Shown in pieces: positions 300-56,112 of a stretch of 64,000 nt of DNA; within the stretch, counting starts at the first letter, position 1, and each line of letters opens with the position of its first letter. This DNA is from an uncultured Thermoplasmata archaeon (GTDB lineage Archaea; Thermoplasmatota; Thermoplasmata; UBA10834). Location of the stretch: contig CAZAUI010000007.1 of the NCBI GenBank assembly GCA_964488505.1, forward strand, positions 725-64,724. Direction: 5' to 3'. The notes below the pieces were generated by a model, which saw only the letters and a program-made list of their open reading frames with translations, had not been told where the DNA came from and searched no databases. Made by a program: the position numbers and the translations under genes.

Positions 300-2129
300 A
301 TGAAAGGGTTCGCAGGCAGGATACTCAAGATAGACCTCACGACGGGCAGGAGCTCCGTCAAGACGACGGACGAGAGGTATGTGAGGAAGTACCTGGGAGG
401 CCAGGGCTTCGCGGTCGAGCTCGTATACCACGGGGTCCCGGAAGGGGCCGACGCGCTCTCGCCTGAGAACGTGCTCGCGATGGCGCCGGGCCTGTTCGCC
501 GGATACCCGGTCCCGACGGGCGGCAAGACCGCGTTCGCGGGGAAGTCGCCGGCCACGAACACGCTCGCCGAGAGCGTCATGGGCGGGTCCATAGGGGCGG
601 AGCTCAGGCACGCCGGCTATGACGCGCTGGAGATCCACGGCAGGAGCGACGCGCCGGCGTACATATTCATCGAGGACGACAAGGTCGAGGTCAACGAGGC
701 GGAGGACATCTGGGGCAAGGACACCAGGGCCACCCCCGAGACGCTCAAGAAGCGCCACGGCTGGGACGTGAAGGTCGCGTGCATCGGGGTCGCCGGCGAG
801 AAGCTCGTCAGGATGGCGTGCATCGACTGCGACGACAGGCAGTCCGGGAGGGCCGGGCTCGGCGCGGTCATGGGGTCGAAGAACCTGAAGGCCATAGTGG
901 TCAGGGGCACCAAGGACCTCGAGCCCGCGGACCCGGGTGCGCTCCTGGAGATCGCGCTCAGGTACCAGAAGATCATGGAGGCCGCGCCGTCCTTCGTCGA
1001 GGACACGAAGTACGGCACGGGCGAGTTCCTGGGCTGGATAAACAAGGAGAAGGGCGTGTTCCCGACCAGGAACTGGCAGGAGAGCGTGTTCAAGGAGCGG
1101 GAGCAGATCGACCCGTACTACTGGGCCACCAGGTACGTGGCCAAGAACAAGGCCTGCTTCTCCTGCACCAAGCCCTGCGGCAAGCTGTTCGAGGTCAAGG
1201 ACGGCAAGTTCGCGGGGGTCGTGATCGACGGGCTGGAGTACGAGACCCTGTACTCGCTCGGAGGCACCTGCGGCAACTCGAGGATAGAGTCCGTCGCGAA
1301 GGCCAACGAGGTCTGCGACCTCGTCGGCATAGACACCATATCCGCAGGGGTCACGATCGGCTTCGCGATGGAGCTGGTCCAGAGAGGCATACTGACCGAG
1401 CAGGAGGTCGGCATGAAGCTCACATGGGACAACGCCGAGGACGCCGTGCCGATGATGTGCGAGCTCATGGGCAGGCGCGAGGGCTTCGGGGACGTCCTGG
1501 CCGACGGGGTCAAGAGGGCCGCCGAGAGGATAGGCAAGGGCTCCGCGAGGTACGCGATACACACGAAGGGTCTCGAGCCGCCCGCGTACGACGTCAGGGG
1601 CATGAAGGGCCACGGGCTGGCGTACATGACCTCCACCAGGGGCGCGTGCCACCTCAGGGCCGGGTTCTACGCGCCCGAGCTCGTCGGCAAGTTCTGGCGC
1701 TGGGAGGGCATAGACAGGTTCTCCACGGAGGGCAAGGGCGAGAAGGTCGCCACCATGGAGAACTTCATGTGCGTCTACGACTCGGTGGGGCTGTGCAAGT
1801 TCTCGAGGGGCTTCTTCCTCATCGACAAGCTCAGGGAGGTCATCAAGGCCATCACCGGGCTCGAGTTCACCGAGGACGAGCTGCTCAGGACCGGCGAGAG
1901 GATACACAACATGAAGGGCAACTTCAACGTGCTCCAGGGGGTCACCAGGAAGGACTGGCTGCTGCCCCCGAGGGTCCTGGAGGACCCCATACCGGACGGA
2001 CCGTCCAAGGGCTCGAAGATCAGCGTCGAGGAGATGAACAAGATGCTCGACGACTACATGGCCTTCAGGAAGTGGACCTCCGAAGGGGTCCCGACGCCGG
2101 AGAAGCTGAAGGAGCTCGACATAGCGTAG
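300..2129 (+). CDS. aor: Aldehyde:ferredoxin oxidoreductase (tungstopterin AOR family)
   Basis: 609-aa ORF. N-terminus MKGFAGRILKIDLTTG...YLGGQGF and the later ...MENFMCVYDSVGLCKFS... are typical of the AOR family. GGAGGAGGAG lies just upstream and a ferredoxin gene immediately precedes it. Confidence 0.93.
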   Translation: MKGFAGRILKIDLTTGRSSVKTTDERYVRKYLGGQGFAVELVYHGVPEGADALSPENVLAMAPGLFAGYPVPTGGKTAFAGKSPATNTLAESVMGGSIGAELRHAGYDALEIHGRSDAPAYIFIEDDKVEVNEAEDIWGKDTRATPETLKKRHGWDVKVACIGVAGEKLVRMACIDCDDRQSGRAGLGAVMGSKNLKAIVVRGTKDLEPADPGALLEIALRYQKIMEAAPSFVEDTKYGTGEFLGWINKEKGVFPTRNWQESVFKEREQIDPYYWATRYVAKNKACFSCTKPCGKLFEVKDGKFAGVVIDGLEYETLYSLGGTCGNSRIESVAKANEVCDLVGIDTISAGVTIGFAMELVQRGILTEQEVGMKLTWDNAEDAVPMMCELMGRREGFGDVLADGVKRAAERIGKGSARYAIHTKGLEPPAYDVRGMKGHGLAYMTSTRGACHLRAGFYAPELVGKFWRWEGIDRFSTEGKGEKVATMENFMCVYDSVGLCKFSRGFFLIDKLREVIKAITGLEFTEDELLRTGERIHNMKGNFNVLQGVTRKDWLLPPRVLEDPIPDGPSKGSKISVEEMNKMLDDYMAFRKWTSEGVPTPEKLKELDIA

Positions 2130-13999: not shown

Positions 14000-16495
14000 A
14001 TGAGTGGCGACTCCGAAGGAACTAATGACAACGCCTCGTCCGACGCGGGATCCGAGAACATCAGCCCCAAGAGGAAGGGCGCGTCACCTACGGTGAAGAT
14101 AATCGCCGTGGCGGTGATAGTGATCCTGCTCATAGCGGTCCCCGTGGGATACTTCATCCTGACGGGAGACGACGATGGCGATGATGACGATGACGACGAC
14201 GCGGATGAGGCTGTCGATTTCTCCGTCGTCCTGACGGGGAAGGATGGGCAGACTGAGACGGTGAACTACACGGCGTTGGAGGGGATGGACTTCGTTGAGG
14301 CCGTATCCTCATTCCAGAACACCTTCGGGACCTGGAAGGGGCTCGGGACCTACGGCGGGGTGGAGCTGAGAGACCTCGCAGACCTCGTCGGCGGCATGGA
14401 GCCGGGCGACGTCATGACGGTCTCCGCGCCTGACGGCTACGCATGCAACCTCACATACTATCAGGTCTACGCGGCAGAGGAGTACCTCGAGATACAGGGA
14501 CGGATCATCCTGGCGTATGAATACAACAGCTCCATCATGGACGACGAGGATGGCCCTATGGTCGCGGTGCTGTCTCCTGACGGGGCATTCAGCAACGACG
14601 ACTTCAACGCCACGTGTTCGAAGGACCCCGAGTTCTTGTCGCTTACAGGCGCAGGCCCCCTGTGGGTCAAGAACGTTAGCACGATATCTGTCGGCAGTCT
14701 GTACGAGGAATGGACGGTCAATCTCACAAACCTCGACGAGGTAACGACAGAGCTGACCAGGACAGAGTTCGTCAGACTCGCATACTTCAACAGCGCTGAG
14801 TGGACCGACGACGAGGAAGGGGTATGGTCAGGCGCCACATTGTCGTCCGTGCTAGGCCTGATCGACGACGACGACCCGTCGACTTTCAACGAGACGCTTG
14901 CAGACACGGACTACCAGGTACAGATAATGGCGAGCGACGAATACAACAAGACCTTCATCGCCAAGTACCTCGTCGAGAACGGGACCCTGCTGGCCGACAT
15001 GCTCAACGGCACCGCCCTCGGCGAGGAGGACTCCCCGCTGAGGATCGTAGGCGACGGCATGACCGGCGGCCAGATGGTCAGCATGGTCGCTTCTGTCACC
15101 ATGCTCCCGCCCTCGGAGCCCGATGTGCCGGAGGACGTCGTCCTGACCGTGGAAGGGACGACGACGTTGGACTTCACGCTCTCCGAGCTGCAGGGAATGA
15201 CGGCCGTCACGTCCATGGGCGGATTCATAAAGTCGACAGGCACCGTCATAGGGCCGGACGAGTTCACCGGTGTCCCCCTGAATGACCTTGTCGGCATGGT
15301 ATATTCAGGAGGGGAGTACTCGGTCGAGGTGGTCGCCACTGACGACTACACGATCACGTACAACTACTCGCAGGTCGAGGACGGGTTGTTCGAATACTTC
15401 GACTCTGCAACAGGAGACCCCCTTGGATACGACGCCTTCACGATGGTCATGGCCTATGCGCAGGACGGACTACCCCTGGAAAACATGACCCTGCGCATTG
15501 CCATCATCGACGACAGCGAACCAATCACGAGCAGCGACCTGTGGGCGAAGATGGTGAGGACGGTCAGGGTGGTCCCGTTCGTTGAGGAGTGGTCTCTCCG
15601 ATTGAACGGCACCACGGCCATGGACTTGAACAGACAGACATTCGAGGCGATTGCCTCCTGTGACTATCACATGGTCAGTTGGTCGTTCGAGAACGAGACG
15701 GGTGTACACACGTACACCGGCGTCGCATTGTGGGTGCTCGTCTCGGCCGTGGACGGGGCGGACGGGCCGGAAGGGGAGTACTCATTCAACGACCTGCTCG
15801 CATTCGCAGGCTACAGCGTCAGGGTGACCGCCTCGGACGGATACAACAAGGCGTTCACATCGATGCAGGTCGCGAGGAACGACTCCATAATCGTCGCGAA
15901 CAGGCTCGACGGACAACCGCTGCCGGACGACGAATGGCCCCTGAGGATAGTGGGGAACTGGCTGCCGGGCAACATGAAGGTCGGACAGGTGGTCAACATA
16001 TCCCTCGAGGACCTCCAGCCGGTGCCCGACTGGGAGCTGACCCTGATAGGCACTAGGACCATAGTCATGAGCGCGGAATCACTTGCATCTATGTTCTACT
16101 CCGGCCTACACGGGCCGTGGTTCAACTACACCGACGAGGACGGGATGCACGCTGCGTTCTACACCTTCACGAACGAGACCGGCGAACACACGTACGCAGG
16201 GATACCGCTCTGGATGCTCGTCGCGATCGTGGACGGAGAGGACCTGGACCACTACGAATTCAACGAGTCGCTGGCTGACGCGGGGTACGACGTGAATGTC
16301 AGCGCTGTCGACTACAGCACACTCCTTCCGATTTCCACTGTGGCACACAACGACAGCGTCATCCTCGCGTTCATGCTCGACGGGGGGTTCCTCATGGACG
16401 ACGACTACCCGTTGAAGCTCGTGGGCGAGTACCTGTCCGGGTCGCAGAAGGTGAAGGCGGTTGTGACGATAGTGCTGGTCAATCTGCCTGCGTGA
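14000..16495 (+). CDS. N-terminally anchored surface protein with five tandem Moco-less sulfite-oxidase/YedY-like domains
   Basis: 831 aa: cytoplasmic tail, one TM (VKIIAVAVIVILLIAVPVGYFIL), a poly-Asp linker, then five ~135-160-aa repeats. Approximate repeat coordinates are 14216-14695, 14705-15106, 15131-15577, 15584-16012 and 16025-16486. Recurring strings are GV.L.DLV / GV.LW.LV, DGY/SDGYNK and PLRIVG. About 20 N-x-S/T sequons are present. Confidence 0.8.
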   Translation: MSGDSEGTNDNASSDAGSENISPKRKGASPTVKIIAVAVIVILLIAVPVGYFILTGDDDGDDDDDDDADEAVDFSVVLTGKDGQTETVNYTALEGMDFVEAVSSFQNTFGTWKGLGTYGGVELRDLADLVGGMEPGDVMTVSAPDGYACNLTYYQVYAAEEYLEIQGRIILAYEYNSSIMDDEDGPMVAVLSPDGAFSNDDFNATCSKDPEFLSLTGAGPLWVKNVSTISVGSLYEEWTVNLTNLDEVTTELTRTEFVRLAYFNSAEWTDDEEGVWSGATLSSVLGLIDDDDPSTFNETLADTDYQVQIMASDEYNKTFIAKYLVENGTLLADMLNGTALGEEDSPLRIVGDGMTGGQMVSMVASVTMLPPSEPDVPEDVVLTVEGTTTLDFTLSELQGMTAVTSMGGFIKSTGTVIGPDEFTGVPLNDLVGMVYSGGEYSVEVVATDDYTITYNYSQVEDGLFEYFDSATGDPLGYDAFTMVMAYAQDGLPLENMTLRIAIIDDSEPITSSDLWAKMVRTVRVVPFVEEWSLRLNGTTAMDLNRQTFEAIASCDYHMVSWSFENETGVHTYTGVALWVLVSAVDGADGPEGEYSFNDLLAFAGYSVRVTASDGYNKAFTSMQVARNDSIIVANRLDGQPLPDDEWPLRIVGNWLPGNMKVGQVVNISLEDLQPVPDWELTLIGTRTIVMSAESLASMFYSGLHGPWFNYTDEDGMHAAFYTFTNETGEHTYAGIPLWMLVAIVDGEDLDHYEFNESLADAGYDVNVSAVDYSTLLPISTVAHNDSVILAFMLDGGFLMDDDYPLKLVGEYLSGSQKVKAVVTIVLVNLPA
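14168..14209 (+). repeat. GAY-rich low-complexity tract encoding a poly-Asp linker (DDDGDDDDDDDADE)
   Basis: Read directly: gac gac gat ggc gat gat gac gat gac gac gac gcg gat gag, immediately after the TM anchor. Confidence 0.9.
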
Positions 16496-16501: not shown

Positions 16502-17989
16502 ATGCTTGGGCTCCGGGACCGGAAGACATGGGCCGCGATCACCGTCGCGGCCAGCGCGGTAGTGATACTGGCCGGTTTAGGCTTCACAATGTTGGGAGAT
16601 AGCGTCGAAGCCGAAGGAGGAGATGTACTCACAAGGACCTCGGATAGCATCGTAGTCCGGTGCTCGGGGCCTGAAGTGATTCTCTCACTCGACAACTTCG
16701 ACGGCCGGGTGACGTTCACGAACTGTTTCCCGAACTCCACGCTGACAGGGTGCGACGGCCCGACGAGCGCGGAGGGGTCGAACATGTCTTGTGAGGTCGA
16801 CGGTTCGAAGACCGAGCTGCGGCTTTCGGCCCAGGAGAAGGTGTCGTTCAAGTTCGCGGTGATGGGCGACAGCCAGGGATACAACGACATCCTCGAGGCG
16901 GCCCTCGAGAAGGTGGACGGGTGCGAGTTTGTCATCCACTGCGGGGACGTGACCACGTCCGGGCAGGCGTCCGAGTACGACTCCTTCGAGAAGACCTTGA
17001 GGACCGTGACGGTCCCCGTCATGACGACCCCTGGGAACCACGACGTCAAGCTCGACGGGGGCGACGAGTACGTGTCGAGGCTCGGGGCCATGGCATACAG
17101 TTTCGAGTACTCTAGCATAAGGTTCGCATTCGTGGATTCGTCAGACCAAGTCATCTCGGAGGAGGAGATCGACTGGCTTGCGGATGTCTTCGACGGGGCA
17201 GACAGGAAGGTCCTCGTCACTCACGTGCCGAGCTACGACCCGTTCGGGGACAACCACACGCTGGACGCTGCCTCGTGCGACCGGATACAGGAGTTCATGC
17301 TCGAGGAGGGCGTCGACGCCGTGTTCACCGGCCACATACACGCCTACCACTTCATGCAGGTGGAGGGCATAGACTGTCTGATAACCGGCGGTGCGGGCGG
17401 GACGCTGGTGGACGGAGTCCACCACCTTGTCATCGTGACTGTGGACGAGACCGGCTTCTCATACGAGAAGATAGACCTCGAGACCGTCCCGACATACTCG
17501 CCGCATATCGAGGTCATAGGGAAGGACGGCGCGCGCCTGAACGTGACCTACGACGAACTGATGTTGATGGACATTCTGGAGGCCGATTCGTCTTACGAGA
17601 ACCTGTACGGCAACATCGCAGGGGAAGGACGATACGAGGGCGTCCTCGTCCGGGACCTGCTGGAACTGGTGGGGGGGATGGCCGAGGGCGACCTCCTCAC
17701 GATAACGGCTGCTGATGGATACTCCCAGGACTTCGGGTTCCTGAACGCTTACCCGGACGCTACATGGCTCGCCCTCCAAGGCGATATGATAGTCTCCATC
17801 GAGTTCGACGGCGTCCTGGCCGGCGATTGGACGGACGGCCCGAGGGTCGCCATGCTGCCCGATGACGGACTGTACAGCAATTCCGATTGCGAGCTTACCT
17901 CGTACGAAGGGCAAGGGTTCTGGGTGTCCGAATCCGCCGGAGCCAGATGGGTCAGGAACACACTCACCATCACGGTGGTGGCGGCGTGA
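16502..17989 (+). CDS. Membrane-anchored extracytoplasmic metallophosphoesterase fused to the same YedY-like domain
   Basis: An N-terminal TM (AAITVAASAVVILAGLGFTML) is followed by calcineurin-like motifs VMGDSQG, HCGDVT, PGNHD, VTHVP and TGHIHAYH. The C-terminal 160 aa (nt 17504-17986) align by eye with repeat 1 of the upstream protein (YEGVLVRDLLELVGGMAEGDLLTITAADGY vs YGGVELRDLADLVGGMEPGDVMTVSAPDGY). Confidence 0.8.
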   Translation: MLGLRDRKTWAAITVAASAVVILAGLGFTMLGDSVEAEGGDVLTRTSDSIVVRCSGPEVILSLDNFDGRVTFTNCFPNSTLTGCDGPTSAEGSNMSCEVDGSKTELRLSAQEKVSFKFAVMGDSQGYNDILEAALEKVDGCEFVIHCGDVTTSGQASEYDSFEKTLRTVTVPVMTTPGNHDVKLDGGDEYVSRLGAMAYSFEYSSIRFAFVDSSDQVISEEEIDWLADVFDGADRKVLVTHVPSYDPFGDNHTLDAASCDRIQEFMLEEGVDAVFTGHIHAYHFMQVEGIDCLITGGAGGTLVDGVHHLVIVTVDETGFSYEKIDLETVPTYSPHIEVIGKDGARLNVTYDELMLMDILEADSSYENLYGNIAGEGRYEGVLVRDLLELVGGMAEGDLLTITAADGYSQDFGFLNAYPDATWLALQGDMIVSIEFDGVLAGDWTDGPRVAMLPDDGLYSNSDCELTSYEGQGFWVSESAGARWVRNTLTITVVAA

Positions 17990-19062
17990 GGAAGTACTAC
18001 TTCTCGACGAAGGACCTCGTCACAATAGCCCTCCTGTCCGCTCTCGGCGGCGTGCTGTCGACGTACATAGGGTACCTCGGGAACATGGTCAACCACATCA
18101 TCGGGGTCCCGTTCGGTGCGGGACAGTTCATGGCCGGCCTCCATGTCATCTGGATAATGCTCGCCCTGGGGATAACCCGCAAGAAGGGCGCGGCGACCGC
18201 GACCGGGCTGCTGAAAGGCATCGTCGAGCTGTTCCTGGGGAGCACACACGGCATAATCATAGTGGTGGTGTCGATCATACAGGGGCTCATACCGGACCTG
18301 GTCCTGTTCAGAGACAAGACGAAGACGGACAGGAGCCCGACGATGTACGCCATCGCCGGCGGACTCTCGGCCGCATCGAACGTGGTCGTCTTCTACGCCT
18401 TCTTCCTATCTGGCGTGCCGTTCGTGCTGCTGGGGATGCTGTGCATGCTCGCGGCGGCGTCCGGGATCATATTCGGGGGATGGCTGGTCCTTGAGATGCT
18501 CGAATCGCTCGAGTTCTCCGGGATGGTCCTGGGGAAGAAGAGGATCATCGTCGACGACCCGCAGGTCCGCGAATCCGTATGGACCCAGAGCAAGGAAAGC
18601 AAGCGCAAGGTCTTCGCAGCGATGATGGTAGTGGCGATGTTCCTATCGGCGTTCACGGTCGGGGCCGTCTACTACTTCATGTTCGTATACAACATCACGG
18701 ACGAGGGGTCCGCCGAGGTGACGGGGTCCGTCGCTGACCCGTACACCTTCCGATACGCGGACTTCGAGGACCTCGAGGTCGTCGTCAACGCCGAACTGAT
18801 AGGAACCGTGACACACGTGGAACCGATGGATTACGAAGGGGTCCCGCTGAGAGATATGGTGGACAGAGCAGGGCCGGAGCCTGGCGCATCCCTCGTCTAC
18901 GTGACCGGCAGCGACGGATACTACGCCGCCTTCGGCCTCGAGGATGTCCTCTCGGACAGCCAGCTCATAATCGTCCTCGAGGACGGGAAGCTGAGGGTCG
19001 TCGCAGCCAACTACGACGGGGCCTACTGGGTGGAGGACGTCGTCGAGATAGAAGTGAGGTAG
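17986..19062 (+). CDS. ECF-transporter S-component (6 TM) fused through a 7th TM to an extracytoplasmic YedY-like domain
   Basis: The start is taken at GTG 17986 (GTGA overlap with the upstream stop); the track start at 17887 overlaps the previous gene by 100 nt. Six hydrophobic helices match an S-component pattern (KDLVTIALLSALGGVLSTYIGYL ... GLLKGIVELFLG...). A basic linker follows, then TM7 (VFAAMMVVAMFLSAFTVGAVYYFMFVY), then YEGVPLRDMVDRAGPEPGASLVYVTGSDGY...LRVVAANYDGAYWVEDVVEIEV. Confidence 0.7.
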   Translation: MRKYYFSTKDLVTIALLSALGGVLSTYIGYLGNMVNHIIGVPFGAGQFMAGLHVIWIMLALGITRKKGAATATGLLKGIVELFLGSTHGIIIVVVSIIQGLIPDLVLFRDKTKTDRSPTMYAIAGGLSAASNVVVFYAFFLSGVPFVLLGMLCMLAAASGIIFGGWLVLEMLESLEFSGMVLGKKRIIVDDPQVRESVWTQSKESKRKVFAAMMVVAMFLSAFTVGAVYYFMFVYNITDEGSAEVTGSVADPYTFRYADFEDLEVVVNAELIGTVTHVEPMDYEGVPLRDMVDRAGPEPGASLVYVTGSDGYYAAFGLEDVLSDSQLIIVLEDGKLRVVAANYDGAYWVEDVVEIEVR

Positions 19063-19063: not shown

Positions 19064-20527
19064 ATGCTCGACGTCAAGGACCTCTATGTGAGGTATGAGA
19101 ACAGGTCCAAGCCGGCCATAGACGGACTCACATTCCACATAGACCCCGGGGAGTTCGTCCTTCTGATGGGCGGGAGCGCGTCCGGGAAGTCCACCGCGAT
19201 GCAGGCCGTGTGCGGCTTCATACCCGAGATAATACACGCGGAGAAGAGAGGGACGGTCAGCATAGACGGGAGGGTGTTCCAGGACGCTGCCTCGGCATCA
19301 AACGTCGTCTGCATGGTGCAGCAGGACCCTGAGACCCAGTTCTGCACCGAGATGGTAGAGGACGAGGTGGCGTTCGGGCCTGAGAACTTCAACATGCCTC
19401 AGAGAGAGATCCAGGCGGCGGTCGACGATGCGCTCGCAAGCGTCGGCGCAACGCACCTGGCCCACAGGAGGCTCTCGACGCTCTCCGGCGGGGAGAAGCA
19501 GAAGGTCGCCATCGCATCGATGCTCTCGGTGAGGCCGAGGCTCCTGATACTGGACGAGCCGACATCCAACCTGGACCCGCGCGCGGTGAGGGATGTCGTC
19601 ACAGTGGTCGATGCCCTCAGGCGCGAGAGGGATATGACGATCGTGGTGGTCGAGCACAGACCAGGACAGTTCATCGACCTCGCGTCTAGGGTCATGGTGA
19701 TGAACAAAGGACGGATGGAACACGACCGGACAAGGCCCGCGGGCGGCTTCGAAGGCAGACCGGTGCAAACGCCCCGGAGGTCAGCGAACCCGACGGCATC
19801 TACGAGCGGCCTCTACGCGGTCTCGACAGAAAGGCTGATGTTCGACATCGGAGGCGTCAGGATACTCGACGATGTCACTTTCGAAGTGCACGAAGGGGCC
19901 ATCGTCGCCCTCATGGGAGAGAACGGCGCAGGCAAGACCACATTACTGAGGCTCCTTACAGGACTTCTTCAGCCGGCCTCGGGGAATATCAAGGTCTTCG
20001 AACACGGGTTCGGCGCGGGCAGGAGGGCGGAGCCGTGGACCGTGGGGAAGGATGTGGGATTCGTATTCCAGAACCCGAACCACCAGATCTTCGAACGGTC
20101 CGTCGAGAAGGAGATACTGTTCGCTGCCGAAAACTACAGAGTCGACAAGAAGGATGCCGTCGCGGCGGTTGAAGGGTTCGAAGCGTCGGAGGAGGTGATG
20201 AGGTTCGTGCACCCCCATTGCCTCAGCTTCGGCCAGAAGAGAAGAGTCAACATCAGGTCCGCGTCCTCCCACGGGCCGAGACTGATACTCATGGACGAAC
20301 CTTTCGCGGGGCAGGATGAAGCGAACGCCGCGAAGATCAGGGAGATGATAGCGGGCATGCAGAAAGACGGGAAGACCACGATAGTGGTCACTCACGACCT
20401 GACATTCGCCAGAGAATGGTGCACTGACTTTCTGTTCATGAGTCACGGCAGGTTGACCAAGTCGGGGTCCGTATCTGACCTCGCCGACAGCGACTGGGAC
20501 GATCTGTTCCCGGGGGTCGGCAGATGA
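19064..20527 (+). CDS. ecfA: ECF-transporter ATPase, tandem (EcfA-EcfA' fused) ABC protein
   Basis: There are two ABC cassettes. Walker A motifs are GGSASGKST and GENGAGKTT. Signature motifs are LSGGEKQKV and LSFGQKRRV. Walker B motifs are LLILDEPTS and LILMDEPFA. Confidence 0.9.
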   Translation: MLDVKDLYVRYENRSKPAIDGLTFHIDPGEFVLLMGGSASGKSTAMQAVCGFIPEIIHAEKRGTVSIDGRVFQDAASASNVVCMVQQDPETQFCTEMVEDEVAFGPENFNMPQREIQAAVDDALASVGATHLAHRRLSTLSGGEKQKVAIASMLSVRPRLLILDEPTSNLDPRAVRDVVTVVDALRRERDMTIVVVEHRPGQFIDLASRVMVMNKGRMEHDRTRPAGGFEGRPVQTPRRSANPTASTSGLYAVSTERLMFDIGGVRILDDVTFEVHEGAIVALMGENGAGKTTLLRLLTGLLQPASGNIKVFEHGFGAGRRAEPWTVGKDVGFVFQNPNHQIFERSVEKEILFAAENYRVDKKDAVAAVEGFEASEEVMRFVHPHCLSFGQKRRVNIRSASSHGPRLILMDEPFAGQDEANAAKIREMIAGMQKDGKTTIVVTHDLTFAREWCTDFLFMSHGRLTKSGSVSDLADSDWDDLFPGVGR

Positions 20528-21279
20528 GCGCCGGACACGAGACGGTTGCGATGCGACTCAACCCTATCAGCAAAGCGACGCTGCTGGTGATGTGCTCGAT
20601 TCTGGTGCTTCTCATATCCGACCCGGTCCAGATTTCTGTCATCGTCGTGTGCGTCCTCGTGGCGAAGAGCCGGTACGAAGCCCGAGGGGTCATGACGAAA
20701 GGCATAATCGCCTTCGCGGCCACGATCTTCCTCGCTCAGGTGATCTTCAACGACTCTGGAGAGGTCGTCGCGGATTGGAGAGTGCTGGAGGTCACGACCG
20801 GCGGCATCTACGACGGCATATCGATAGCCGGCAAGTTCCTCAGCCTCATAATGATGTCATGGGTGTTCGTCGCGACCACGACGCCGACGGAGCTCTCGTC
20901 AGCACTAACAACGGCGGGTTTCAGATACAGGTACGCATTCCTGCCCGCGCTCTCCATGCGGTTCGTGCCCGTGTTCAGGTTCGAGCTCGCGACAGTGAGG
21001 GAGGCTCAGGTCACGCGAGGCATGAGGCTCGATAAGAGCCTCAGAGGAATAATCCGCTCGGCAAGATACACCACCACGCCTATGCTGATGACGGCCATGT
21101 CGAGAGTGAACTCCTTGGCGGCCTCGATGGAGGGCAGGGGGTTCGGCATGTACGACAAGAGGACGCAACTGAAACCCCTCAGGATGACCGCGTTCGACCT
21201 TGCGTTCATCGTGTCATCTGCGACTGCAGTGGTGCTCGCCTACTTCGTTTCGAATTGTCCGTCCCTGCAGGTCGCATGA
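20524..21279 (+). CDS. ecfT: ECF-transporter transmembrane T-component (CbiQ/EcfT family)
   Basis: A polytopic membrane protein with the characteristic coupling-helix Ala-Arg-Gly type motifs (...LATVREAQVTRGMRLD... and ...SLAASMEGRGF). It overlaps the ATPase stop by ATGA. Confidence 0.85.
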   Translation: MSAGHETVAMRLNPISKATLLVMCSILVLLISDPVQISVIVVCVLVAKSRYEARGVMTKGIIAFAATIFLAQVIFNDSGEVVADWRVLEVTTGGIYDGISIAGKFLSLIMMSWVFVATTTPTELSSALTTAGFRYRYAFLPALSMRFVPVFRFELATVREAQVTRGMRLDKSLRGIIRSARYTTTPMLMTAMSRVNSLAASMEGRGFGMYDKRTQLKPLRMTAFDLAFIVSSATAVVLAYFVSNCPSLQVA

Positions 21280-21281: not shown

Positions 21282-22001
21282 TCAGATCTTGAGCTCGCCT
21301 CTCTCCAGCCTCGAGGCGAATGACAGGAGTTCCTGCCCGTTCGACCTGAATTGGGAGTAATGGCGTATCGCCGCGGACACGGCGCCAGTCAGTTCCCCGG
21401 CCCTGCGCTGCCCCGAGCAGGCCCAGTACCGGTCAGCAAGGTGCCTCGCGAAGGCGATCTTCTGTTCCGTGAAAGGGGGATTGGTCATCATGGCGCTCGC
21501 GCACAACTGACCCAGGTCCGAGAGCGTATCACCAGTGGCCGCCTCCTCGAAGTCGAGGCCGAAGGCCTCCTGGTCAGTCACGATGAAGTTCCTTAGGATC
21601 GTATCGCCGCGGACACGCCCGAAGTCGAAGGCAACATGGAAGTTGGCCAACCACCGCGCGAGGCTGTCAGCCAACCTCTCCAGCTCCGATGTGAGCCCTA
21701 TCCTCGACGTCGGGACTATGATGCGGTCGAATACCTCCCCCGCCACCTGGCCGTCCACTGGGGTCATTACGATCGCGCCTTCCAGCAAAGCCAGAGGCAC
21801 GGGCACGAGCACGCCCCTCCCGCAGCAGTCCCGCAGCACGTCGTACTCCACCTGTGCCCGCTGACGCCACTCGCCCCTGTAGACCTTGACCACGAACGGT
21901 TCCCCGTCAACGACCGACCTGAACACCCGGTTCTTCTTGCTGTGGAAGAACGGACCCGTCCGCCCTTTCTCTAGGTCGGCAAGCGAGAATGTCACTGGCA
22001 T
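21282..22001 (-). CDS. APH/choline-kinase-fold small-molecule or protein kinase (family uncertain)
   Basis: VFRSVVDGEPFVVKVYRG carries the beta3 Lys context, and HVAFDFGRVRGDTILRNFIV...GLDFEEA resembles the catalytic-loop/DFG-equivalent of the phosphotransferase family. It is convergent with ecfT, with stops 2 nt apart. Confidence 0.55.
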   Translation of the reverse strand: MPVTFSLADLEKGRTGPFFHSKKNRVFRSVVDGEPFVVKVYRGEWRQRAQVEYDVLRDCCGRGVLVPVPLALLEGAIVMTPVDGQVAGEVFDRIIVPTSRIGLTSELERLADSLARWLANFHVAFDFGRVRGDTILRNFIVTDQEAFGLDFEEAATGDTLSDLGQLCASAMMTNPPFTEQKIAFARHLADRYWACSGQRRAGELTGAVSAAIRHYSQFRSNGQELLSFASRLERGELKI

Positions 22002-22054
22002 GCGTATCTCTCACTGAACGAGCAAGCTCGAGACCTCATCGCATTGGACGGATG

Positions 22055-22061
22055 TATATAT
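22055..22061 (-). promoter_or_regulatory. TATA-like box for the kinase gene (minus strand)
   Basis: TATATAT lies about 55 nt upstream of the start at 22001. Confidence 0.35.
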
Positions 22062-22140
22062 GCCGAACCGACCATGGATAACCCAGGGTCCGTGCTCCGC
22101 GCCAGTGCTGTTATCGTAGTTGAGAACGAGGCGCGCACAG

Positions 22141-22148
22141 ATATATAT
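22141..22148 (+). promoter_or_regulatory. TATA-like box for the Spo0M-like gene
   Basis: ATATATAT lies 34-41 nt upstream of ATG 22182. Confidence 0.45.
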
Positions 22149-22181
22149 CACACAGGCTCTAGAACGCCAAGCGGTGTCAAT

Positions 22182-22622
22182 ATGGGGTTCCTAGACAAGA
22201 TGAAGTCCGCCGGCGCAGCCATAACCGGCGGCGCAGCCAAAGTGAGCATAGAATATCCGCACCAGCCTCTGAAACCCGGAGACTCCCTGCCCGTCAAGGT
22301 GACCATCATGTCGATGGGGAAGGAGGTCAAGTCCGGGGGCGTCTTCGTCGACGTCCACGCGGCCGAAGCAGGCCAAGTGAAGTGCAAGCACTGCGGACAG
22401 ATGACCCAGGTTCAACAGGAGACCATAAAGCAGGCCATACCGATAGGGCCAGCGTTCGTGCTGCAGCCGAACGAGACCAAAGTCATAGAGGCGACCGTAC
22501 AGTTGCCCATGGGCCAGCCGTCGTACAGCGGCCAGGTCAGGCACGAATGGAAGATCCGTGGCAGACTCGACGCCTTCGGGAACGACCCTGACTCCGGGTT
22601 CCAGGTCATCGAGGTGCGCTGA
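22182..22622 (+). CDS. Spo0M-like (arrestin-type beta-sandwich) protein
   Basis: MGFLDKMKSAGAAITGGAAKVSIEYPHQPLKPGDSLPVKVTI resembles the SpoOM family N-terminus (M.F.DKLK...G...AKV...PG..V.G.V.I). The start is taken at ATG 22182; the track TTG 22044 is over-extended across the promoter. Confidence 0.55.
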   Translation: MGFLDKMKSAGAAITGGAAKVSIEYPHQPLKPGDSLPVKVTIMSMGKEVKSGGVFVDVHAAEAGQVKCKHCGQMTQVQQETIKQAIPIGPAFVLQPNETKVIEATVQLPMGQPSYSGQVRHEWKIRGRLDAFGNDPDSGFQVIEVR

Positions 22623-22685: not shown

Positions 22686-24161
22686 TCAACGACCTGTTGA
22701 CGGCCTGAACTCAAGGCGCTTCTGGTCGAATCCTTTTGCGTACTCCCTGAGGAGATTCGAAAGACCCTTTGCGACCTCGGGGTCCAACGGGTCTGGCGTG
22801 TGTGACTTCAGTACATCGTACATGCGCGACTTGGCCTTCTCCTCGATCCGCGCAGAGCCGTTCGCAGTCCATTGCTGCCGAGTCATCCTGTCCGAGAGTT
22901 TCGGCACGACGTGCTCCCTGCGGAACTGAGCGAGCGTCTCCTTGTGCTTCAGGAAGTTCCCTTGCGGGCCTATCCGGCCAATCACATCCACCGACAATGT
23001 GCTCTCGTCAACGCGGATGCCCTGGGCGATTCTAACCACGTTCGATGCAATCTCGTCGTCGATCATCAGTTGGACTGGCGAGAACGCGTTGAACGACTCC
23101 GTGGACCCCATGAAGAGCTCGGCGAAATCCGCACCCGACAGCGTCGCCATCAAGGCGGCCTGCGCCTTCTCGTACGAGGTCTGAGCATCCACCGTCTTGG
23201 AGTCGCTCTGGACGCCCATGTCGCTCGGGAGGCCGTAGAACTTCGCCATCTGCACCGCGCCCACTCCCAGCAGAGAGAACTCCGGAGAACCCGTCGCCGC
23301 GATGCCGGACCTCATGTCCAACGGACATGACACCGACCCGTAGACGACTTTGGGCGATTTCGTCACGCACTTCGCTATGGCTATCGTGCTCAATATCTCT
23401 GCGTTCTGCTGGACGAGGAGGCCGGCCAAGGACGCCGGAGCAGTCCCTCCTGCAAGCGCCATCACCATGATGAACACTGGAAGGTCCATCTCAGAGTACC
23501 TGAGGAGCGTGGTCAGCATCAGCTTGTCATGGCCGAGCGGGCTGATTGGGTCGATGTACCCGGGGAACACGGCCTTCTTGGCCACGAGACTCTTGTCCCC
23601 CAGGACCAACTCCGCCATGCGGAGAGTCATCTCGAACTCGAGGTCGTCCCCGCTGCCGCCGTAGCTCGGCTTGGATGTGTGGATGAGTCCCGTCGCCCAC
23701 ATGACCATGCTCATTGCGTCGGCCGAGACGTCTCCAGGATAGACCGGGACATATCCGAGCGCGCAGGTGTCGAGAGCGTCGAGCATGCGCGTGATGCGTA
23801 TGCCGTCCTCCAGCGTGGACGGCCTGAACTCCCCCGTCTCGGGCTCGATGTAGAAAAGGCACTGCGCTCCCGGGCCGAACTTGGTCCTGCCGTCGACGGC
23901 GTCCACCGAATTCTTCTCGCTGCGCGCGTGCCACCTGAAGTTGTGTGCGCAACTCTTCACTGCCTCGTTCACGGACGATTCTGACATCCTCACGATGCGG
24001 GATTTCTTGTCGACACGGTGGCCGTTACGCTCCAGCAGGTCGAGCACCTCGACGGAGTCGACGAACACGCCCGTCCTCTCGAGGACATCCAAAGTGGCGC
24101 CGTGTATCTGCTCAATGTCGGCCTTGTCCAAGACTGTCAGCAAGCTCTTCCTAGCTACCAT
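22686..24161 (-). CDS. MttB-superfamily methyltransferase homologue without pyrrolysine (quaternary-amine:corrinoid methyltransferase-like)
   Basis: An uninterrupted 491-aa ORF. The N-terminus ...LTVLDKADIEQIHGATLDVLERTGVFVDS..., its length and ...FYGLPSDMGVQSDSKTVDAQTSYEKA... are typical of the trimethylamine methyltransferase (MttB) family. There is no in-frame TAG. Confidence 0.85.
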   Translation of the reverse strand: MVARKSLLTVLDKADIEQIHGATLDVLERTGVFVDSVEVLDLLERNGHRVDKKSRIVRMSESSVNEAVKSCAHNFRWHARSEKNSVDAVDGRTKFGPGAQCLFYIEPETGEFRPSTLEDGIRITRMLDALDTCALGYVPVYPGDVSADAMSMVMWATGLIHTSKPSYGGSGDDLEFEMTLRMAELVLGDKSLVAKKAVFPGYIDPISPLGHDKLMLTTLLRYSEMDLPVFIMVMALAGGTAPASLAGLLVQQNAEILSTIAIAKCVTKSPKVVYGSVSCPLDMRSGIAATGSPEFSLLGVGAVQMAKFYGLPSDMGVQSDSKTVDAQTSYEKAQAALMATLSGADFAELFMGSTESFNAFSPVQLMIDDEIASNVVRIAQGIRVDESTLSVDVIGRIGPQGNFLKHKETLAQFRREHVVPKLSDRMTRQQWTANGSARIEEKAKSRMYDVLKSHTPDPLDPEVAKGLSNLLREYAKGFDQKRLEFRPSTGR

Positions 24162-33063: not shown

Positions 33064-33210
33064 GCTGCATACTCGAACGAGGTGGGTGCCTAATACTCCT
33101 TTCGCAGGCCCCCGGTATGGCAAAACCATTGCAAAACCGCCCTCAGGGTTCAAATACCCCCCTCCGGCCTGTTGATACGATAGAAGCCTCGAAGAGGAGG
33201 TAGGAAGAAG

Positions 33211-56109: not shown

Positions 56110-56112
56110 GCC

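What the first reader, a model, noticed from the sequence alone, without database searches (positions are those of the whole stretch)
17986..19062. ECF S-component carrying a 7th TM helix and an external ~120-aa domain
Established knowledge: ECF importers are defined by a small integral-membrane S-component (about 6 TM, both termini cytoplasmic) and, unlike canonical ABC importers, use no extracytoplasmic binding protein.

Seen in sequence:
- Six helices are followed by a basic linker (GKKRIIVDDPQVRESVWTQSKESKRKV).
- One further hydrophobic helix follows, then a soluble YedY-like domain.

Inference: by the positive-inside rule the C-terminal domain is outside. An S-component with its own external domain would be an unusual hybrid of the two ABC-importer logics.
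Basis: partly seen in the sequence, partly recalled or inferred. Interest (0 to 1): 0.65.

Follow-up and report, generated by a model that had tools for sequence, protein, structure and literature searches.

The report
ECF importer subunit with external domain
A membrane subunit of a vitamin-type (ECF) importer in an uncultured archaeon really does carry an extra membrane helix and an outward-facing domain resembling a pterin-binding domain, and its conserved gene neighbours, together with riboswitches in bacterial relatives, tie it to tungsten/molybdenum-cofactor supply, pointing to an undescribed uptake route.

Summary
Window 17986-19062(+) encodes a 358-aa protein with four parts:
- a YkoE-family ECF S-component (six helices);
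- a basic, variable linker;
- a seventh TM helix;
- a ~120-aa truncated sulfite-oxidase-fold (SUOX) domain without cysteine, whose compact structural relatives include PruR periplasmic pterin-binding proteins.

Positive-inside counts on 50 homologues place the domain outside the cell. The fusion is not an assembly artefact. More than 120 full-length protein clusters share it, and 235 species genomes encode a relative; all 80 loci kept match over nearly the full length (Thermoplasmatota, Asgard archaea, anaerobic Bacillota).

The gene sits in a conserved module:
- a surface protein built of SUOX-like repeats;
- a membrane-anchored metallophosphoesterase carrying the same domain;
- the S-fusion itself;
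- a fused A-A ATPase;
- a T component;
- a small kinase.

In Bacillota, 7 of 12 evaluable operons lie behind Moco/Tuco riboswitches, and the five shown as alignments lack P3 (the Tuco type). Others adjoin tupABC, moeA or AOR genes. No TPP riboswitch was found.

Best reading (inferred): a scavenging importer of the W/Mo-cofactor regulon. External SUOX-like domains capture a pterin-type compound, the phosphoesterase dephosphorylates it, the ECF complex imports it and the kinase traps it. Tungstate uptake is the main rival. I found no published description. It is a new variant of a known kind, of high interest.

The parts
14000..16495 (+). 831-aa surface protein: N-terminal membrane anchor, poly-Asp tract, then repeated SUOX-like (Oxidored_molyb-like) domains
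   Evidence: Pfam PF00174 scores 76.8 bits in 3 stretches. Six matches to the S-fused-domain HMM, with DGY and G..WV motifs. Orthologues of 335-1570 aa occupy the first position of the module in all three phyla. They contain 1-2 'long-type' domains scoring 120-156 bits against the phosphoesterase C-domain HMM.
16502..17989 (+). 495-aa membrane-anchored metallophosphoesterase with a C-terminal 'long-type' SUOX-like domain (about aa 340-495)
   Evidence: Pfam Metallophos scores 65.8 bits. The closest solved structures are GpdQ at E=1.8e-6 and purple acid phosphatases. Metal and catalytic motif residues D123, D149, N179-H180, H241, H278 and H280 are invariant or nearly so (at least 98%) in 60 sequences from 3 phyla. 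The C-domain matches the S-fused domain HMM.
17986..18519 (+). S-component core of the fusion protein (aa 1-178; six TM helices, YkoE/PF09819 family)
   Evidence: Supported. Cross-phylum invariant residues include Y30, N36, the VPFGAGQ loop, H53, W56, K77 and E81.
18520..18609 (+). Cytoplasmic basic linker (aa 179-208), probably a flexible tether
   Evidence: It carries 8 K+R. Length varies from 15 to 50 aa, the sequence is not conserved, and pLDDT is about 56.
18610..18687 (+). Seventh transmembrane helix (aa 209-234), in-to-out
   Evidence: Hydropathy maximum 2.2. AF2 helix 196-234. G226 is invariant and Y229/Y230 are nearly invariant across phyla.
18697..19059 (+). External truncated SUOX-fold domain (aa 238-358), Cys-less, PruR-like in size
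   Evidence: Foldseek hits SorA/SoxC, YedY and PruR. The domain profile hits SoxC at E=2e-8. Cross-phylum invariant residues are G247, E270, L271, G273, G285, D310-G311-Y312, F316, G345 and W348. It contains no cysteine (sequence).
19064..20527 (+). Fused double ATPase (EcfA-EcfA', YkoD-like), 487 aa
   Evidence: Two ABC_tran domains. NCBIfam ECF_ATPase_1 scores 330 bits, above its cut-off (315); ECF_ATPase_2 scores 318 bits, just below its own (330).
20524..21279 (+). ECF T component (CbiQ family), 251 aa
   Evidence: Pfam CbiQ scores 86 bits. It holds a conserved position in all loci long enough to show it.
21282..22001 (-). 239-aa protein-kinase-like (APH/Bud32-like) kinase, convergent with the operon end; linked to the module in three phyla in different arrangements
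   Evidence: Pfam APH at E=7e-12. Synteny is shown. K39, E52, D133, N138 and D150 are invariant. The AF2 model has pLDDT 93.7. The nearest folds are Bud32/PRPK, followed by small-molecule kinases.

Best explanation
SHOWN. The gene encodes a genuine, conserved group-I ECF S-component of the YkoE family. A seventh TM helix places a ~120-aa cysteine-free, truncated SUOX-fold domain on the outer face of the membrane. The gene is the centre of a conserved module of six genes:
- a surface protein made of repeats of the same domain class;
- a membrane-anchored, catalytically intact metallophosphoesterase ending in that domain;
- the S-fusion itself;
- a fused A-A ATPase;
- a T component;
- a compact kinase with all catalytic residues.

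In Bacillota the orthologous operons belong to the tungsten/molybdenum-cofactor regulon: they lie behind Moco/Tuco riboswitches (the five shown as alignments lack P3, the Tuco type) and next to tupABC, moeA or AOR genes.

INFERRED mechanism. The module is a high-affinity scavenging importer that serves W/Mo-cofactor supply.
1. The external SUOX-derived domains have lost the Mo-ligand cysteine and its hairpin, as PruR pterin-binding proteins have. They capture a pterin-type, phosphate-bearing compound; molybdopterin or tungstopterin, or a precursor or derivative, is the leading candidate.
2. The external phosphoesterase removes the phosphate or nucleotide.
3. The S-fused domain is tethered by TM7 and a floppy cytoplasmic linker, so the six-helix core can still topple. 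It hands the ligand to the S-component pocket, which keeps the Glu that binds the aminopyrimidine ring in YkoE (and, in the Thermoplasmatota, the Gln too).
4. The dedicated ECF module drives import.
5. The kinase re-phosphorylates and so traps the compound.

I put the architecture, topology and regulon link at about 0.85, an organic phosphorylated substrate at about 0.55, and a pterin or molybdopterin type specifically at about 0.3-0.35.
For: Architecture and topology.

Conservation of the fusion and of the module in Thermoplasmatota, Asgard archaea and Bacillota.

Same domain class in the three exported proteins.

SUOX homology without Cys. Residues 28-45 of the domain replace a roughly 37-residue SorA segment, so the hairpin is truncated.

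PruR precedent: a compact, Cys-less SUOX fold that binds free pterins outside the cytoplasm, with the pterin sandwiched by Tyr104 and Trp160 and hydrogen-bonded by Asn102 (PMC11194511). Foldseek matches PruR chains 7rkb and 7kos with target TM-score 0.58-0.59. The invariant D310-G-Y312 and W348 sit at the corresponding motif positions.

Regulon:
- RF01055 matches at E=1e-12 to 1e-17 lie directly upstream of the operon in L059, L060, L063, L069 and L081. In L075 one precedes two tupA-like genes that run into the S gene. In L071 one stands at the head of tupABC followed by the module. That is 7 of 12 loci with enough upstream sequence.
- Additional copies precede stand-alone SUOX-repeat proteins (L071, L075).
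- All five aligned copies lack P3, the Tuco-associated type (PMC2408646).
- Terminator-like hairpins follow the aptamers and are compatible with P1, an OFF-type layout.
- TupA-like genes are adjacent in L071, L075 and L080. MoeA and an AOR gene lie directly upstream in L078. An AOR gene is present in the window itself.
- No TPP, THF or preQ1 riboswitch was found in 24 loci or in the window.

Phosphoester logic: the phosphoesterase motifs are conserved in 60 sequences and the kinase catalytic residues are invariant. The kinase is linked to the module in three phyla in three different gene orders, and its family is small and has no other domain context.

S-component pocket: YkoE Glu77 and Gln95, which bind the aminopyrimidine, align with E81 and Q99. 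E81 is invariant across phyla; Q99 is invariant only among the Thermoplasmatota sequences. The thiamine-stacking Trp49 is replaced by an invariant His53, and Tyr46 by Ala.
Against: - No ligand has been tested.
- The riboswitch link exists only in Bacillota. Archaeal loci show no Mo/W neighbour apart from an AOR gene 12 kb away.
- Tuco riboswitches in Eubacterium limosum also precede iron transporters, FocA and the tungstoenzyme WOR1 (PMC11725836). Regulon membership therefore does not identify the substrate, and the ON/OFF polarity is not established.
- Molybdopterin is chemically labile, and no prokaryotic uptake or 'MPT kinase' is known (own knowledge).
- Five of 12 evaluable Bacillota operons have no riboswitch.
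- The equivalence of Y312 and W348 with the PruR pterin sandwich rests on motif position, not on a superposition.
- The kinase's nearest structural neighbours are Bud32/PRPK, so it could be a protein kinase or an ATPase.
- A pocket carboxylate does not exclude tungstate: WtpA coordinates tungstate through carboxylates (own knowledge).
Confidence: 0.45

Rival explanations
1. Tungstate/molybdate ECF importer. The S-component binds the oxyanion, and the external SUOX-like domains, and possibly the dinuclear metal site of the phosphoesterase, act as oxyanion receptors. This would be a fourth class of W/Mo uptake system beside ModABC, TupABC and WtpABC.
For: - Transporters behind Moco/Tuco riboswitches are classically Mod/Tup systems (PMC2408646).
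- The operons carry P3-less riboswitches.
- In L075 two tupA-like genes share the transcription unit with the S-fusion. In L071 tupABC and a SulP-like gene directly precede the module.
- Glycine-rich external loops (VPFGAGQ, GSTHG) and the invariant K77 and H53 (H88 is nearly invariant) could coordinate an anion.
- Tungstate and molybdate bind tightly to metallophosphoesterase active sites (own knowledge).
Against: - This reading does not explain why the phosphoesterase keeps every catalytic residue in 60 sequences.
- It does not explain why a cytoplasmic kinase is linked in three phyla.
- The system would be redundant with tupABC in the same locus.
- The S-component belongs to a heterocycle-binding family and keeps the ring-binding Glu (and, in the Thermoplasmatota, the Gln).
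- SUOX and PruR folds bind pterins; they bind oxyanions only through the bound metal cofactor.
Confidence: 0.2
2. The external domains are scaffolding only. Homotypic SUOX-like domains dock the surface protein and the phosphoesterase onto the transporter, or onto the cell envelope, without binding the substrate. The substrate is some other phosphorylated micronutrient co-regulated with Tuco demand.
For: - The same domain occurs in all three exported proteins of the module.
- Copy number in the surface protein varies widely, from 335 to 1570 aa.
- Tuco regulons include nutrients other than W or pterin.
- Many repeats lack the Trp of the G..WV motif.
Against: - D-G-Y and W348 are invariant across three phyla in the S-fused copy. 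These are positions that line the pterin site in SUOX and PruR proteins.
- The domain is maintained at a 1:1 fusion with the S-component over deep divergence, down to 26% identity.
Confidence: 0.15
3. Cofactor export or delivery. The ECF complex runs outward and supplies Tuco/Moco (or MPT) to Sec-exported SUOX-like proteins that work as extracytoplasmic oxidoreductases. The analogy is FAD export by the Listeria RibU/FmnA ECF system for extracytosolic flavinylation (own knowledge).
For: - Moco/Tuco riboswitches also precede genes for cofactor-using enzymes.
- All three exported proteins carry Moco-domain relatives and lack twin-arginine signals, so they would need the cofactor outside.
- The phosphoesterase C-domain has an invariant Cys.
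Against: - The S-fused domain and most repeats lack any Cys and the hairpin that carries the Mo ligand.
- The domains are truncated to 120-155 aa and have no dimerisation domain.
- The external phosphoesterase and the cytoplasmic kinase have no role in this scheme.
- The terminator layout looks like repression by the cofactor.
Confidence: 0.08
4. Ordinary thiamine/HMP importer, as the automatic annotations say (YkoEDC-like), with a decorative or accessory external domain.
For: - JGI names several homologues 'ABC-type thiamin/hydroxymethylpyrimidine transport system permease subunit'.
- The family matches YkoE at E=4.9e-10, and the operon has the S / fused A-A / T layout of ykoEDC.
- E81 and Q99 align with the pyrimidine-binding Glu77 and Gln95.
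Against: - Identity to YkoE is only about 21%.
- The essential stacking residue Trp49 is an invariant His here, and Tyr46 is Ala. W49A abolished the thiamine-induced fluorescence quenching used to measure binding in YkoE (PMC5037267).
- No TPP riboswitch occurs in any of 24 loci or in the window, whereas ten Moco/Tuco riboswitches do.
- The neighbours are tupABC, moeA and AOR genes, not thi genes.
Confidence: 0.07
5. Assembly or sequencing artefact that joins an S-component gene to a downstream gene for a membrane-anchored domain.
For: None was found. A few short 'half' proteins appear in the 50%-identity library (P0144, P0145).
Against: - The same continuous ORF occurs in more than 120 independent clusters and in all 80 genome loci kept, from many studies.
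- The 'unfused' P0145 is a gene cut by a contig end.
Confidence: 0.01

Closest known systems
YkoEDC, the group-I ECF thiamine/HMP importer of Bacillus subtilis (YkoE structure 5EDL)
   Same: - Homologous six-helix S-component (PF09819; profile E=4.9e-10; Foldseek target TM-score 0.76).
- A dedicated module with a fused double ATPase and a T component in one operon.
- The Glu that binds the aminopyrimidine ring is retained (and, in the Thermoplasmatota, the Gln too).
   Different: - YkoE ends after helix 6 in the cytoplasm. This protein adds a linker, a seventh TM helix and an external domain.
- The thiamine-stacking Trp49 is His and Tyr46 is Ala.
- Regulation is by a Moco/Tuco riboswitch in Bacillota, not a TPP riboswitch.
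- The operon has extra genes: an external phosphoesterase, a SUOX-repeat surface protein and a kinase.
PruR, periplasmic pterin-binding proteins of Proteobacteria (7KOS, 7RKB)
   Same: - A compact SUOX fold that lacks the Mo-ligand cysteine and has a shortened hairpin.
- An extracytoplasmic location.
- It binds a free small molecule, not a prosthetic Moco.
- Conserved Tyr and C-terminal Trp lie at corresponding motif positions.
   Different: - PruR is a soluble signalling protein that controls the DcpA c-di-GMP enzyme.
- The domain here is covalently tethered to a transporter subunit and repeated in operon partners.
- Sequence similarity was not detectable with profiles; only the fold matches.
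- Ligand-residue equivalence is not verified.
Sulfite-oxidase family Moco domains (SorA, SoxC, YedY/MsrP; PF00174)
   Same: True homology of the C-domain: the profile hits SoxC at E=2e-8 and SorA at E=1e-6, and Foldseek gives about 1e-5 to 1e-4. It shares the Y/W-x-G-V-P-L and G-x-x-W-V motifs.
   Different: About 120 aa in place of a Moco domain of roughly 170-250 aa plus dimerisation domain. It has no cysteine. It is exported without a Tat signal, so it is probably not a catalytic molybdoenzyme.
Type I ABC importers with substrate-binding domains fused to the translocator (OpuA, GlnPQ of Lactococcus lactis; own knowledge)
   Same: An extracytoplasmic receptor domain is covalently tethered to a membrane subunit of an ABC importer, which raises the local receptor concentration.
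   Different: Those are type I importers with classical two-lobed SBP folds. This is an ECF (type III) importer, whose S-component is itself the binding protein, and the fused domain has a SUOX fold.
Metal ECF systems with extra extracytoplasmic parts (CbiMNQO, Nik(MN)QO with NikK/NikL; own knowledge)
   Same: Group-I ECF transporters whose S unit is extended by additional TM segments or partnered with exported accessory proteins.
   Different: These are unrelated accessory proteins with metal-ion substrates. No CbiM or CbiN family was detected here.
Moco/Tuco riboswitch regulon (RF01055)
   Same: Bacillota orthologues of the operon lie directly behind P3-less (Tuco-type) aptamers, as tupABC and MPT-biosynthesis genes do.
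   Different: No ECF transporter or SUOX-repeat surface protein was described in the riboswitch papers I could read. The archaeal window has no riboswitch.

Membership tests
ECF S-component, YkoE family (PF09819) | Six-helix S-component fold and family sequence signature | tested here: met
   Pfam scores 71 bits against a cut-off of 25.2. The family profile hits 5edl at E=4.9e-10 over residues 9-188. Foldseek finds 5edl at E=1.3e-6 with target TM-score 0.76. Six AF2 helices are predicted.
ECF S-component, YkoE family (PF09819) | Encoded with a dedicated ECF module (A, A', T), i.e. group I | tested here: met
   The fused A-A ATPase at 19064-20527 and the T component at 20524-21279 are directly downstream. 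The arrangement is conserved in all loci long enough to show it.
ECF S-component, YkoE family (PF09819) | The protein ends after helix 6 with both termini cytoplasmic | tested here: not met
   A linker, TM7 and a 120-aa domain follow helix 6. The literature states that H6 delimits S-components (PMC11109136).
ECF S-component, YkoE family (PF09819) | Thiamine-binding residues of YkoE (Trp49, Tyr46, Glu77, Gln95, Asp131) | tested here: not met
   Glu77 aligns with E81 (invariant across phyla) and Gln95 with Q99 (invariant among the Thermoplasmatota sequences only). Trp49 is replaced by an invariant H53 and Tyr46 by A50. Asp131 falls in an insertion absent here.
ECF S-component, YkoE family (PF09819) | TPP-riboswitch control or thiamine gene context | tested here: not met
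   No TPP riboswitch was found in the window or in the 24 related loci scanned. Moco/Tuco riboswitches were found instead.
SUOX-fold molybdopterin-binding domain (PF00174) | Fold and sequence homology to the Moco domain | tested here: met
   Foldseek hits SorA, SoxC, nitrate reductase and YedY at E=1e-5 to 1e-3. The profile hits SoxC at E=2e-8. The window protein scores 23.6 bits, just below the Pfam cut-off of 24, while the distant fused relative P0230 scores 52 bits.
SUOX-fold molybdopterin-binding domain (PF00174) | Mo-coordinating cysteine on the long beta-hairpin | tested here: not met
   The window C-domain has no cysteine, and none is conserved across the 28 cross-phylum sequences. About 18 residues replace a SorA segment of about 37 residues.
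SUOX-fold molybdopterin-binding domain (PF00174) | Complete Moco domain plus dimerisation domain, with a pre-folded cofactor-loaded state | tested here: not met
   The domain is about 120 aa and ends at the G-x-x-W-V strand. It is placed outside by a TM helix, with no Tat signal (sequence).
PruR-type pterin-binding proteins | Compact, Cys-less SUOX fold located outside the cytoplasm | tested here: met
   Foldseek hits 7rkb at E=6.7e-4 and 7kos at E=1.3e-3, with target TM-score 0.58-0.59. The family definition is from PMC11194511.
PruR-type pterin-binding proteins | Pterin sandwich Tyr104/Trp160 with hydrogen-bonding Asn102 | tested here: inconclusive
   The invariant D310-G-Y312 and W348 lie at the corresponding motifs. 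No residue-level superposition was possible, and PruR was not retrieved by sequence profile.
PruR-type pterin-binding proteins | Operon with a DcpA-type GGDEF-EAL protein | tested here: not met
   The neighbours are ECF, phosphoesterase and kinase genes.
Classical SBP-dependent ABC importer | Two-lobed periplasmic-binding-protein fold serving as receptor | tested here: not met
   The fused domain has a SUOX fold. TupA-like SBPs occur only as neighbours in three Bacillota loci.
Moco/Tuco riboswitch regulon | RF01055 aptamer in the operon leader | tested here: met
   Met for Bacillota orthologues, in 7 of 12 evaluable loci. All five aligned copies lack P3. Not met in the archaeal window, where no such riboswitch is expected.
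Metal ECF S units (CbiM/CbiN, NikMN) | CbiM/NikM fold with an N-terminal metal-binding motif and a CbiN/NikN partner | tested here: not met
   No CbiM or CbiN Pfam match was found; the best family is PF09819.

The most novel reading that the evidence does not exclude
The module would be the first salvage pathway for the pyranopterin (molybdopterin/tungstopterin) cofactor in prokaryotes. Cys-less SUOX-derived domains on the cell surface would capture cofactor or its derivatives released in anoxic habitats. A tethered phosphoesterase would strip the phosphate or nucleotide. An ECF transporter whose S-component carries its own receptor domain would import the pterin. A dedicated protein-kinase-like enzyme, an 'MPT kinase', would restore the phosphate. 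In Bacillota the whole system is feedback-controlled by Tuco riboswitches.
Probability: 0.27. Interest if true: 0.92.

Novelty: new variant of a known kind. Interest (0 to 1): 0.72.

Why it matters
ECF transporters are defined by doing without an external binding protein, and their toppling mechanism is modelled on free six-helix S-components. A conserved, widespread family breaks that rule: 235 species genomes in three phyla encode a relative, and the S-component carries a tethered external domain. The family gives a natural test case for how toppling tolerates a seventh helix.

Its regulon link suggests an unrecognised acquisition route feeding tungsten/molybdenum enzymes in anaerobic archaea and syntrophic bacteria. 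No uptake system for the pterin part of Moco/Tuco is known in prokaryotes. If the substrate is a pyranopterin, cofactor cross-feeding in anoxic communities becomes directly testable. If it is tungstate, this is a new class of W/Mo transporter.

The finding also corrects the automatic annotations ('thiamin/HMP permease', 'cobalt transport').

Tried and rejected
1. Thiamine reading. I searched for TPP riboswitches in the window at gathering threshold, in the operon leader at E<=1, and in 24 related loci. None was found. The key YkoE thiamine residues are not conserved.

2. Retrieving PruR by sequence. A profile of the C-domain found only SoxC and SorA. No coordinates or PruR sequence were available for a residue-level check.

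3. Naming the kinase. Pfam, NCBIfam and PDB sequence searches gave only generic APH/Bud32/RIO similarity. A homologue search found 40 clusters, with no fusions and no informative names. The fold search is ambiguous between Bud32/PRPK and small-molecule kinases.

4. 'Unfused' close relatives. P0145 proved to be a gene truncated by a contig end. P0166 is a real solitary 189-aa homologue, but on a 3-kb contig with no informative context.

5. Contig look-up for the window protein returned only an 11-kb contig, so I annotated the window with Pfam in batches. No Moco-biosynthesis or W/Mo transporter gene was found among the 27 window proteins scanned; there was only an AOR gene.

6. BLAST of TupABC, the SulP-like protein and AOR against all fetched loci found co-location only in L071, L075 and L080, and none in archaeal loci.

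7. Literature searches found no description. The term sets were: ECF with fusion or extracellular domain; Moco riboswitch with ECF; energy-coupling factor with molybdenum cofactor; ECF with tungsten; S-component with molybdopterin. The Geotalea paper concerns CbiMNQO only.

8. I considered using the conserved pocket Glu as an argument against an oxyanion substrate. I rejected it as weak, because WtpA coordinates tungstate through carboxylates (own knowledge).

9. Whole-genome presence or absence of moaA, moaC and moaDE in carriers could not be tested with the tools available.

Full report
**1. The observation**

The mechanically listed ORF is 17887..19062. The N-termini of homologues coincide with it. 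The product is 358 aa.

Hydropathy and an AlphaFold2 model built on 50 homologues (mean pLDDT 81) agree on the layout:
- six helices at 8-39, 50-64, 69-83, 91-106, 118-140 and 146-178;
- a poorly ordered basic linker (pLDDT about 56);
- a long helix at 196-234 that contains a hydrophobic span at about 209-234;
- a beta-rich domain at 242-357 (pLDDT about 90).

**2. Identity of the two halves**

*N-terminal half.* It matches Pfam PF09819 at 71 bits against a cut-off of 25.2. A family profile matches the crystal structure of YkoE, the thiamine S-component of the B. subtilis group-I ECF transporter, at E=4.9e-10 across all six helices. Foldseek agrees, with target TM-score 0.76. The next two genes encode a fused double ECF ATPase and a T component, the ykoEDC layout.

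*C-terminal half.* It is a real relative of sulfite-oxidase-family Moco domains. Foldseek finds SorA, SoxC, nitrate reductase and YedY, and also the compact PruR pterin-binding proteins (7rkb and 7kos, target TM-score 0.58-0.59). A 25-sequence cross-phylum profile of the domain hits SoxC at E=2e-8 and SorA at E=1e-6.

The window's domain has no cysteine, and none is conserved across the family. The segment that carries the Mo-ligand hairpin in SUOX enzymes is cut to about 18 residues. PruR proteins are described in the same terms: a truncated hairpin, no Mo-ligand Cys, and a free pterin held between a Tyr and a Trp (PMC11194511). Residues invariant across phyla are D310-G311-Y312, F316, G345 and W348. 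W348 aligns with the Trp of the SorA and SoxC G-x-x-W-V strand. Equivalence with PruR Y104 and W160 is plausible but was not verified.

**3. Topology**

Over 50 homologues, mean K+R per segment is:
- N-terminus 2.9, loop 2-3 2.9, loop 4-5 3.4, linker 6-7 6.5;
- the alternate loops 0.3, 0 and 0.

This is the canonical N-in S-component topology followed by an in-to-out seventh helix. The linker stays K/R-rich in all 28 Thermoplasmatota, Asgard and Bacillota sequences examined, although its length varies from 15 to 50 aa and its sequence is not conserved. The C-domain is acidic.

The same domain class occurs in the two upstream gene products behind N-terminal membrane anchors, and in Bacillota in proteins whose N-termini look like lipoprotein signals. 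This independently argues for an extracytoplasmic location. No dedicated topology predictor was available.

**4. Not an artefact, and not rare**

- More than 120 clusters at 90% identity cover 97-100% of the query at 343-372 aa.
- An exhaustive search of 50%-identity representatives finds 353 relatives, with full-length fusions down to 26% identity.
- 235 species genomes encode a relative. The best 80 loci all match over nearly the full length (one is cut by a contig end). They come from Thermoplasmatota, Asgard archaea (Heimdall-, Hermod-, Thor- and Promethearchaeota) and anaerobic Bacillota (Syntrophomonas, Pelotomaculum, Desulfosporosinus, Syntrophaceticus).

Variants exist. Some have an extra C-terminal stretch of about 100 aa, there is an S-A-A fusion, and one distant fused relative scores 52 bits on PF00174.

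**5. A conserved module**

ORF-level comparison of 82 loci shows the same gene string in all three phyla:
- a surface protein of 335-1570 aa made of SUOX-like repeats;
- a roughly 495-aa membrane-anchored metallophosphoesterase ending in a 'long-type' (about 155 aa) SUOX-like domain;
- the S-fusion;
- a fused AA ATPase, sometimes fused to T as well;
- the T component;
- a protein-kinase-like protein of about 240 aa. It is convergent in Thermoplasmatota, co-directional after T in several Bacillota, and upstream in Asgard loci.

The phosphoesterase keeps its metal-binding and catalytic residues in 60 sequences. Its closest solved relatives are GpdQ and purple acid phosphatases. The kinase keeps K39, E52, D133, N138 and D150. 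It folds with high confidence, resembles Bud32/PRPK and then small-molecule kinases, and belongs to a small family with no other context.

**6. The regulon clue**

Rfam scans of the bacterial loci found ten Moco/Tuco riboswitch aptamers (RF01055, 61-78 bits against a gathering score of 36) and no TPP, THF or preQ1 riboswitch.
- In L059, L060, L063, L069 and L081 the aptamer lies directly upstream of the first gene of the module.
- In L075 it precedes two tupA-like genes that run into the S-fusion gene.
- In L071 it heads tupABC, a SulP-like gene and then the module.
- Further copies precede stand-alone SUOX-repeat proteins.

Of 12 Bacillota loci with enough upstream sequence, 7 have the riboswitch. 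L080 lies next to a riboswitch-controlled tupABC. L078 has an AOR fragment, a radical-SAM gene and moeA immediately upstream.

All five aptamers shown as alignments lack stem P3. Regulski et al. correlated this variant with tungsten-cofactor metabolism (PMC2408646). Terminator-like hairpins follow the aptamers without overlapping P1, which suits repression by the cofactor. The polarity is not proven.

The archaeal window has no riboswitch, but it encodes an AOR-family tungstopterin-type enzyme at 300-2129.

One caveat applies. In Eubacterium limosum, Tuco riboswitches also precede iron transporters, FocA and WOR1 (PMC11725836). The riboswitch therefore assigns a regulon, not a substrate.

**7. 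Mechanism**

*Shown:* the architecture, the conservation, the regulon link in Bacillota, and intact catalytic motifs in the phosphoesterase and the kinase.

*Inferred:* the three exported proteins reach the outside without Tat signals and cannot carry pre-loaded Moco. Their SUOX-derived domains therefore most plausibly bind something from outside. An external phosphoesterase, an importer and a cytoplasmic kinase together form the standard logic of cofactor salvage (own knowledge: TPP/thiamine, FAD/riboflavin, NAD/NR).

The S-component keeps the Glu that holds the aminopyrimidine ring in YkoE (invariant across phyla; the matching Gln only within the Thermoplasmatota) but replaces the thiamine-specific Trp49 and Tyr46. 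A different nitrogen heterocycle is therefore likely.

The most coherent candidate is a pyranopterin-type compound that feeds Tuco/Moco synthesis. On this view tupABC in the same loci brings the metal and the ECF module brings the pterin. TM7 and the floppy linker would let the six-helix core topple while the receptor domain stays outside.

My confidence is about 0.85 for the architecture, topology and regulon link, about 0.55 for an organic phosphorylated substrate, and about 0.3 for a pterin specifically.

**8. Rivals**

- *A tungstate/molybdate ECF importer (0.2).* It fits the regulon and the tupA linkage. It leaves the conserved phosphoesterase and kinase unexplained and would be redundant with tupABC.
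- *Scaffolding-only domains with another substrate (0.15).*
- *Outward cofactor delivery to extracytoplasmic SUOX-like enzymes (0.08).* It is weakened by the missing Cys and hairpin.
- *An ordinary thiamine/HMP importer (0.07).* It is contradicted by the pocket residues and the riboswitch class.
- *An artefact (0.01).*

**9. Comparison and novelty**

The protein is a member of the YkoE S-component family by fold and sequence. It fails that family's defining C-terminal topology, thiamine-site residues and regulation. Its extra domain belongs to the SUOX superfamily but fails the Moco-enzyme criteria. It works most like PruR, although membership in that family is unproven.

Tethering a receptor domain to an ABC importer subunit is known for type I importers (OpuA, GlnPQ) but, to my knowledge, not for ECF transporters. 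A 2024 survey of the S-component fold states that H6 ends S-components. Five targeted literature searches found no description of this family or of an ECF system in the Moco/Tuco regulon.

Verdict: the feature is real and is a new variant of a known kind. Its substrate is unresolved but testable.

Noticed in passing
window 300-2129 (+): A complete aldehyde:ferredoxin oxidoreductase family gene (AFOR_N plus AFOR_C, E=1e-125), i.e. a tungstopterin-type enzyme, lies 12 kb upstream of the module. The organism is therefore a W/Mo-pterin user.
   Followed up: partly
window 16502-17989 (+), residue C463 of the product: The 'long-type' SUOX-like domain at the C-terminus of the phosphoesterase has an invariant cysteine in the motif LP.DG.YSN.DC..TSY.GQG (60 sequences). 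The cysteine is not kept in the equivalent domains of the multi-domain surface protein. It is also not at the position of the Mo-ligand Cys of sulfite oxidases.
   Followed up: partly
window 14000-16495 (+), about aa 56-70: A poly-aspartate tract (GDDDGDDDDDDDADE) directly follows the N-terminal membrane anchor of the 831-aa SUOX-repeat protein. The protein is rich in N-x-S/T sequons, as archaeal surface proteins often are.
   Followed up: no
window 22044-22622 (+): A 192-aa protein with a weak Spo0M match recurs just beyond the kinase gene in related Thermoplasmatota loci (L003, L006, L008, L009). It may be a further conserved neighbour of the module.
   Followed up: no
window 22686-24161 (-): An MttB-family methyltransferase (277 bits) with an uninterrupted reading frame, so a non-pyrrolysine member of the trimethylamine methyltransferase superfamily.
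   Followed up: no
window 53639-60079 (+): A hydrogenase-maturation cluster (HypF at 53639-55846, HypD at 56480-57562) is followed by an HdrA-like flavoprotein with Fe-S domains (57674-60079).
   Followed up: no
window 30307-33153 (-): A 948-aa STAND-type NTPase (NB-ARC/AAA_16) with an N-terminal HTH and C-terminal TPR repeats. A similar gene flanks the module in L002.
   Followed up: no
L078 1-4301 (Desulfosporosinus sp. MAG): An AOR C-terminal fragment plus ferredoxin domain, a group II intron-type reverse transcriptase, a radical-SAM protein and MoeA lie directly upstream of the module. A 173-aa SUOX-like protein (Oxidored_molyb, 46 bits) with a lipoprotein-like N-terminus follows the T gene.
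   Followed up: partly
L075 4747-5520 and 6064-7863: A DUF364 ('putative heavy-metal chelation') gene sits between tupC and the riboswitch. Two tandem TupA-like binding-protein genes then lie between the riboswitch and the S-fusion gene, with no permease of their own in that unit.
   Followed up: partly
L071 11480-17041 and L075 12273-17008: Second Tuco-type riboswitches directly precede very large (about 1400 aa) secreted proteins containing SUOX-like domains. These surface proteins are therefore riboswitch-controlled in their own right.
   Followed up: partly
P0197; L057 3006-5720; L069 9202-11808; P0138, P0146, P0148: Other fusion states exist in the family. P0197 is an S-A-A fusion (717 aa, no SUOX domain). 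L057 and L069 carry AA-T fusions (868-904 aa). P0138, P0146 and P0148 are S-fusions with about 100 extra C-terminal residues (about 455 aa).
   Followed up: partly
L074 5268-6569: In this bacterial locus the phosphoesterase of the module is a purple-acid-phosphatase type (Pur_ac_phosph_N plus Metallophos) without the SUOX-like C-domain. A separate 184-aa SUOX-like protein with a lipoprotein-like N-terminus precedes the S gene.
   Followed up: no
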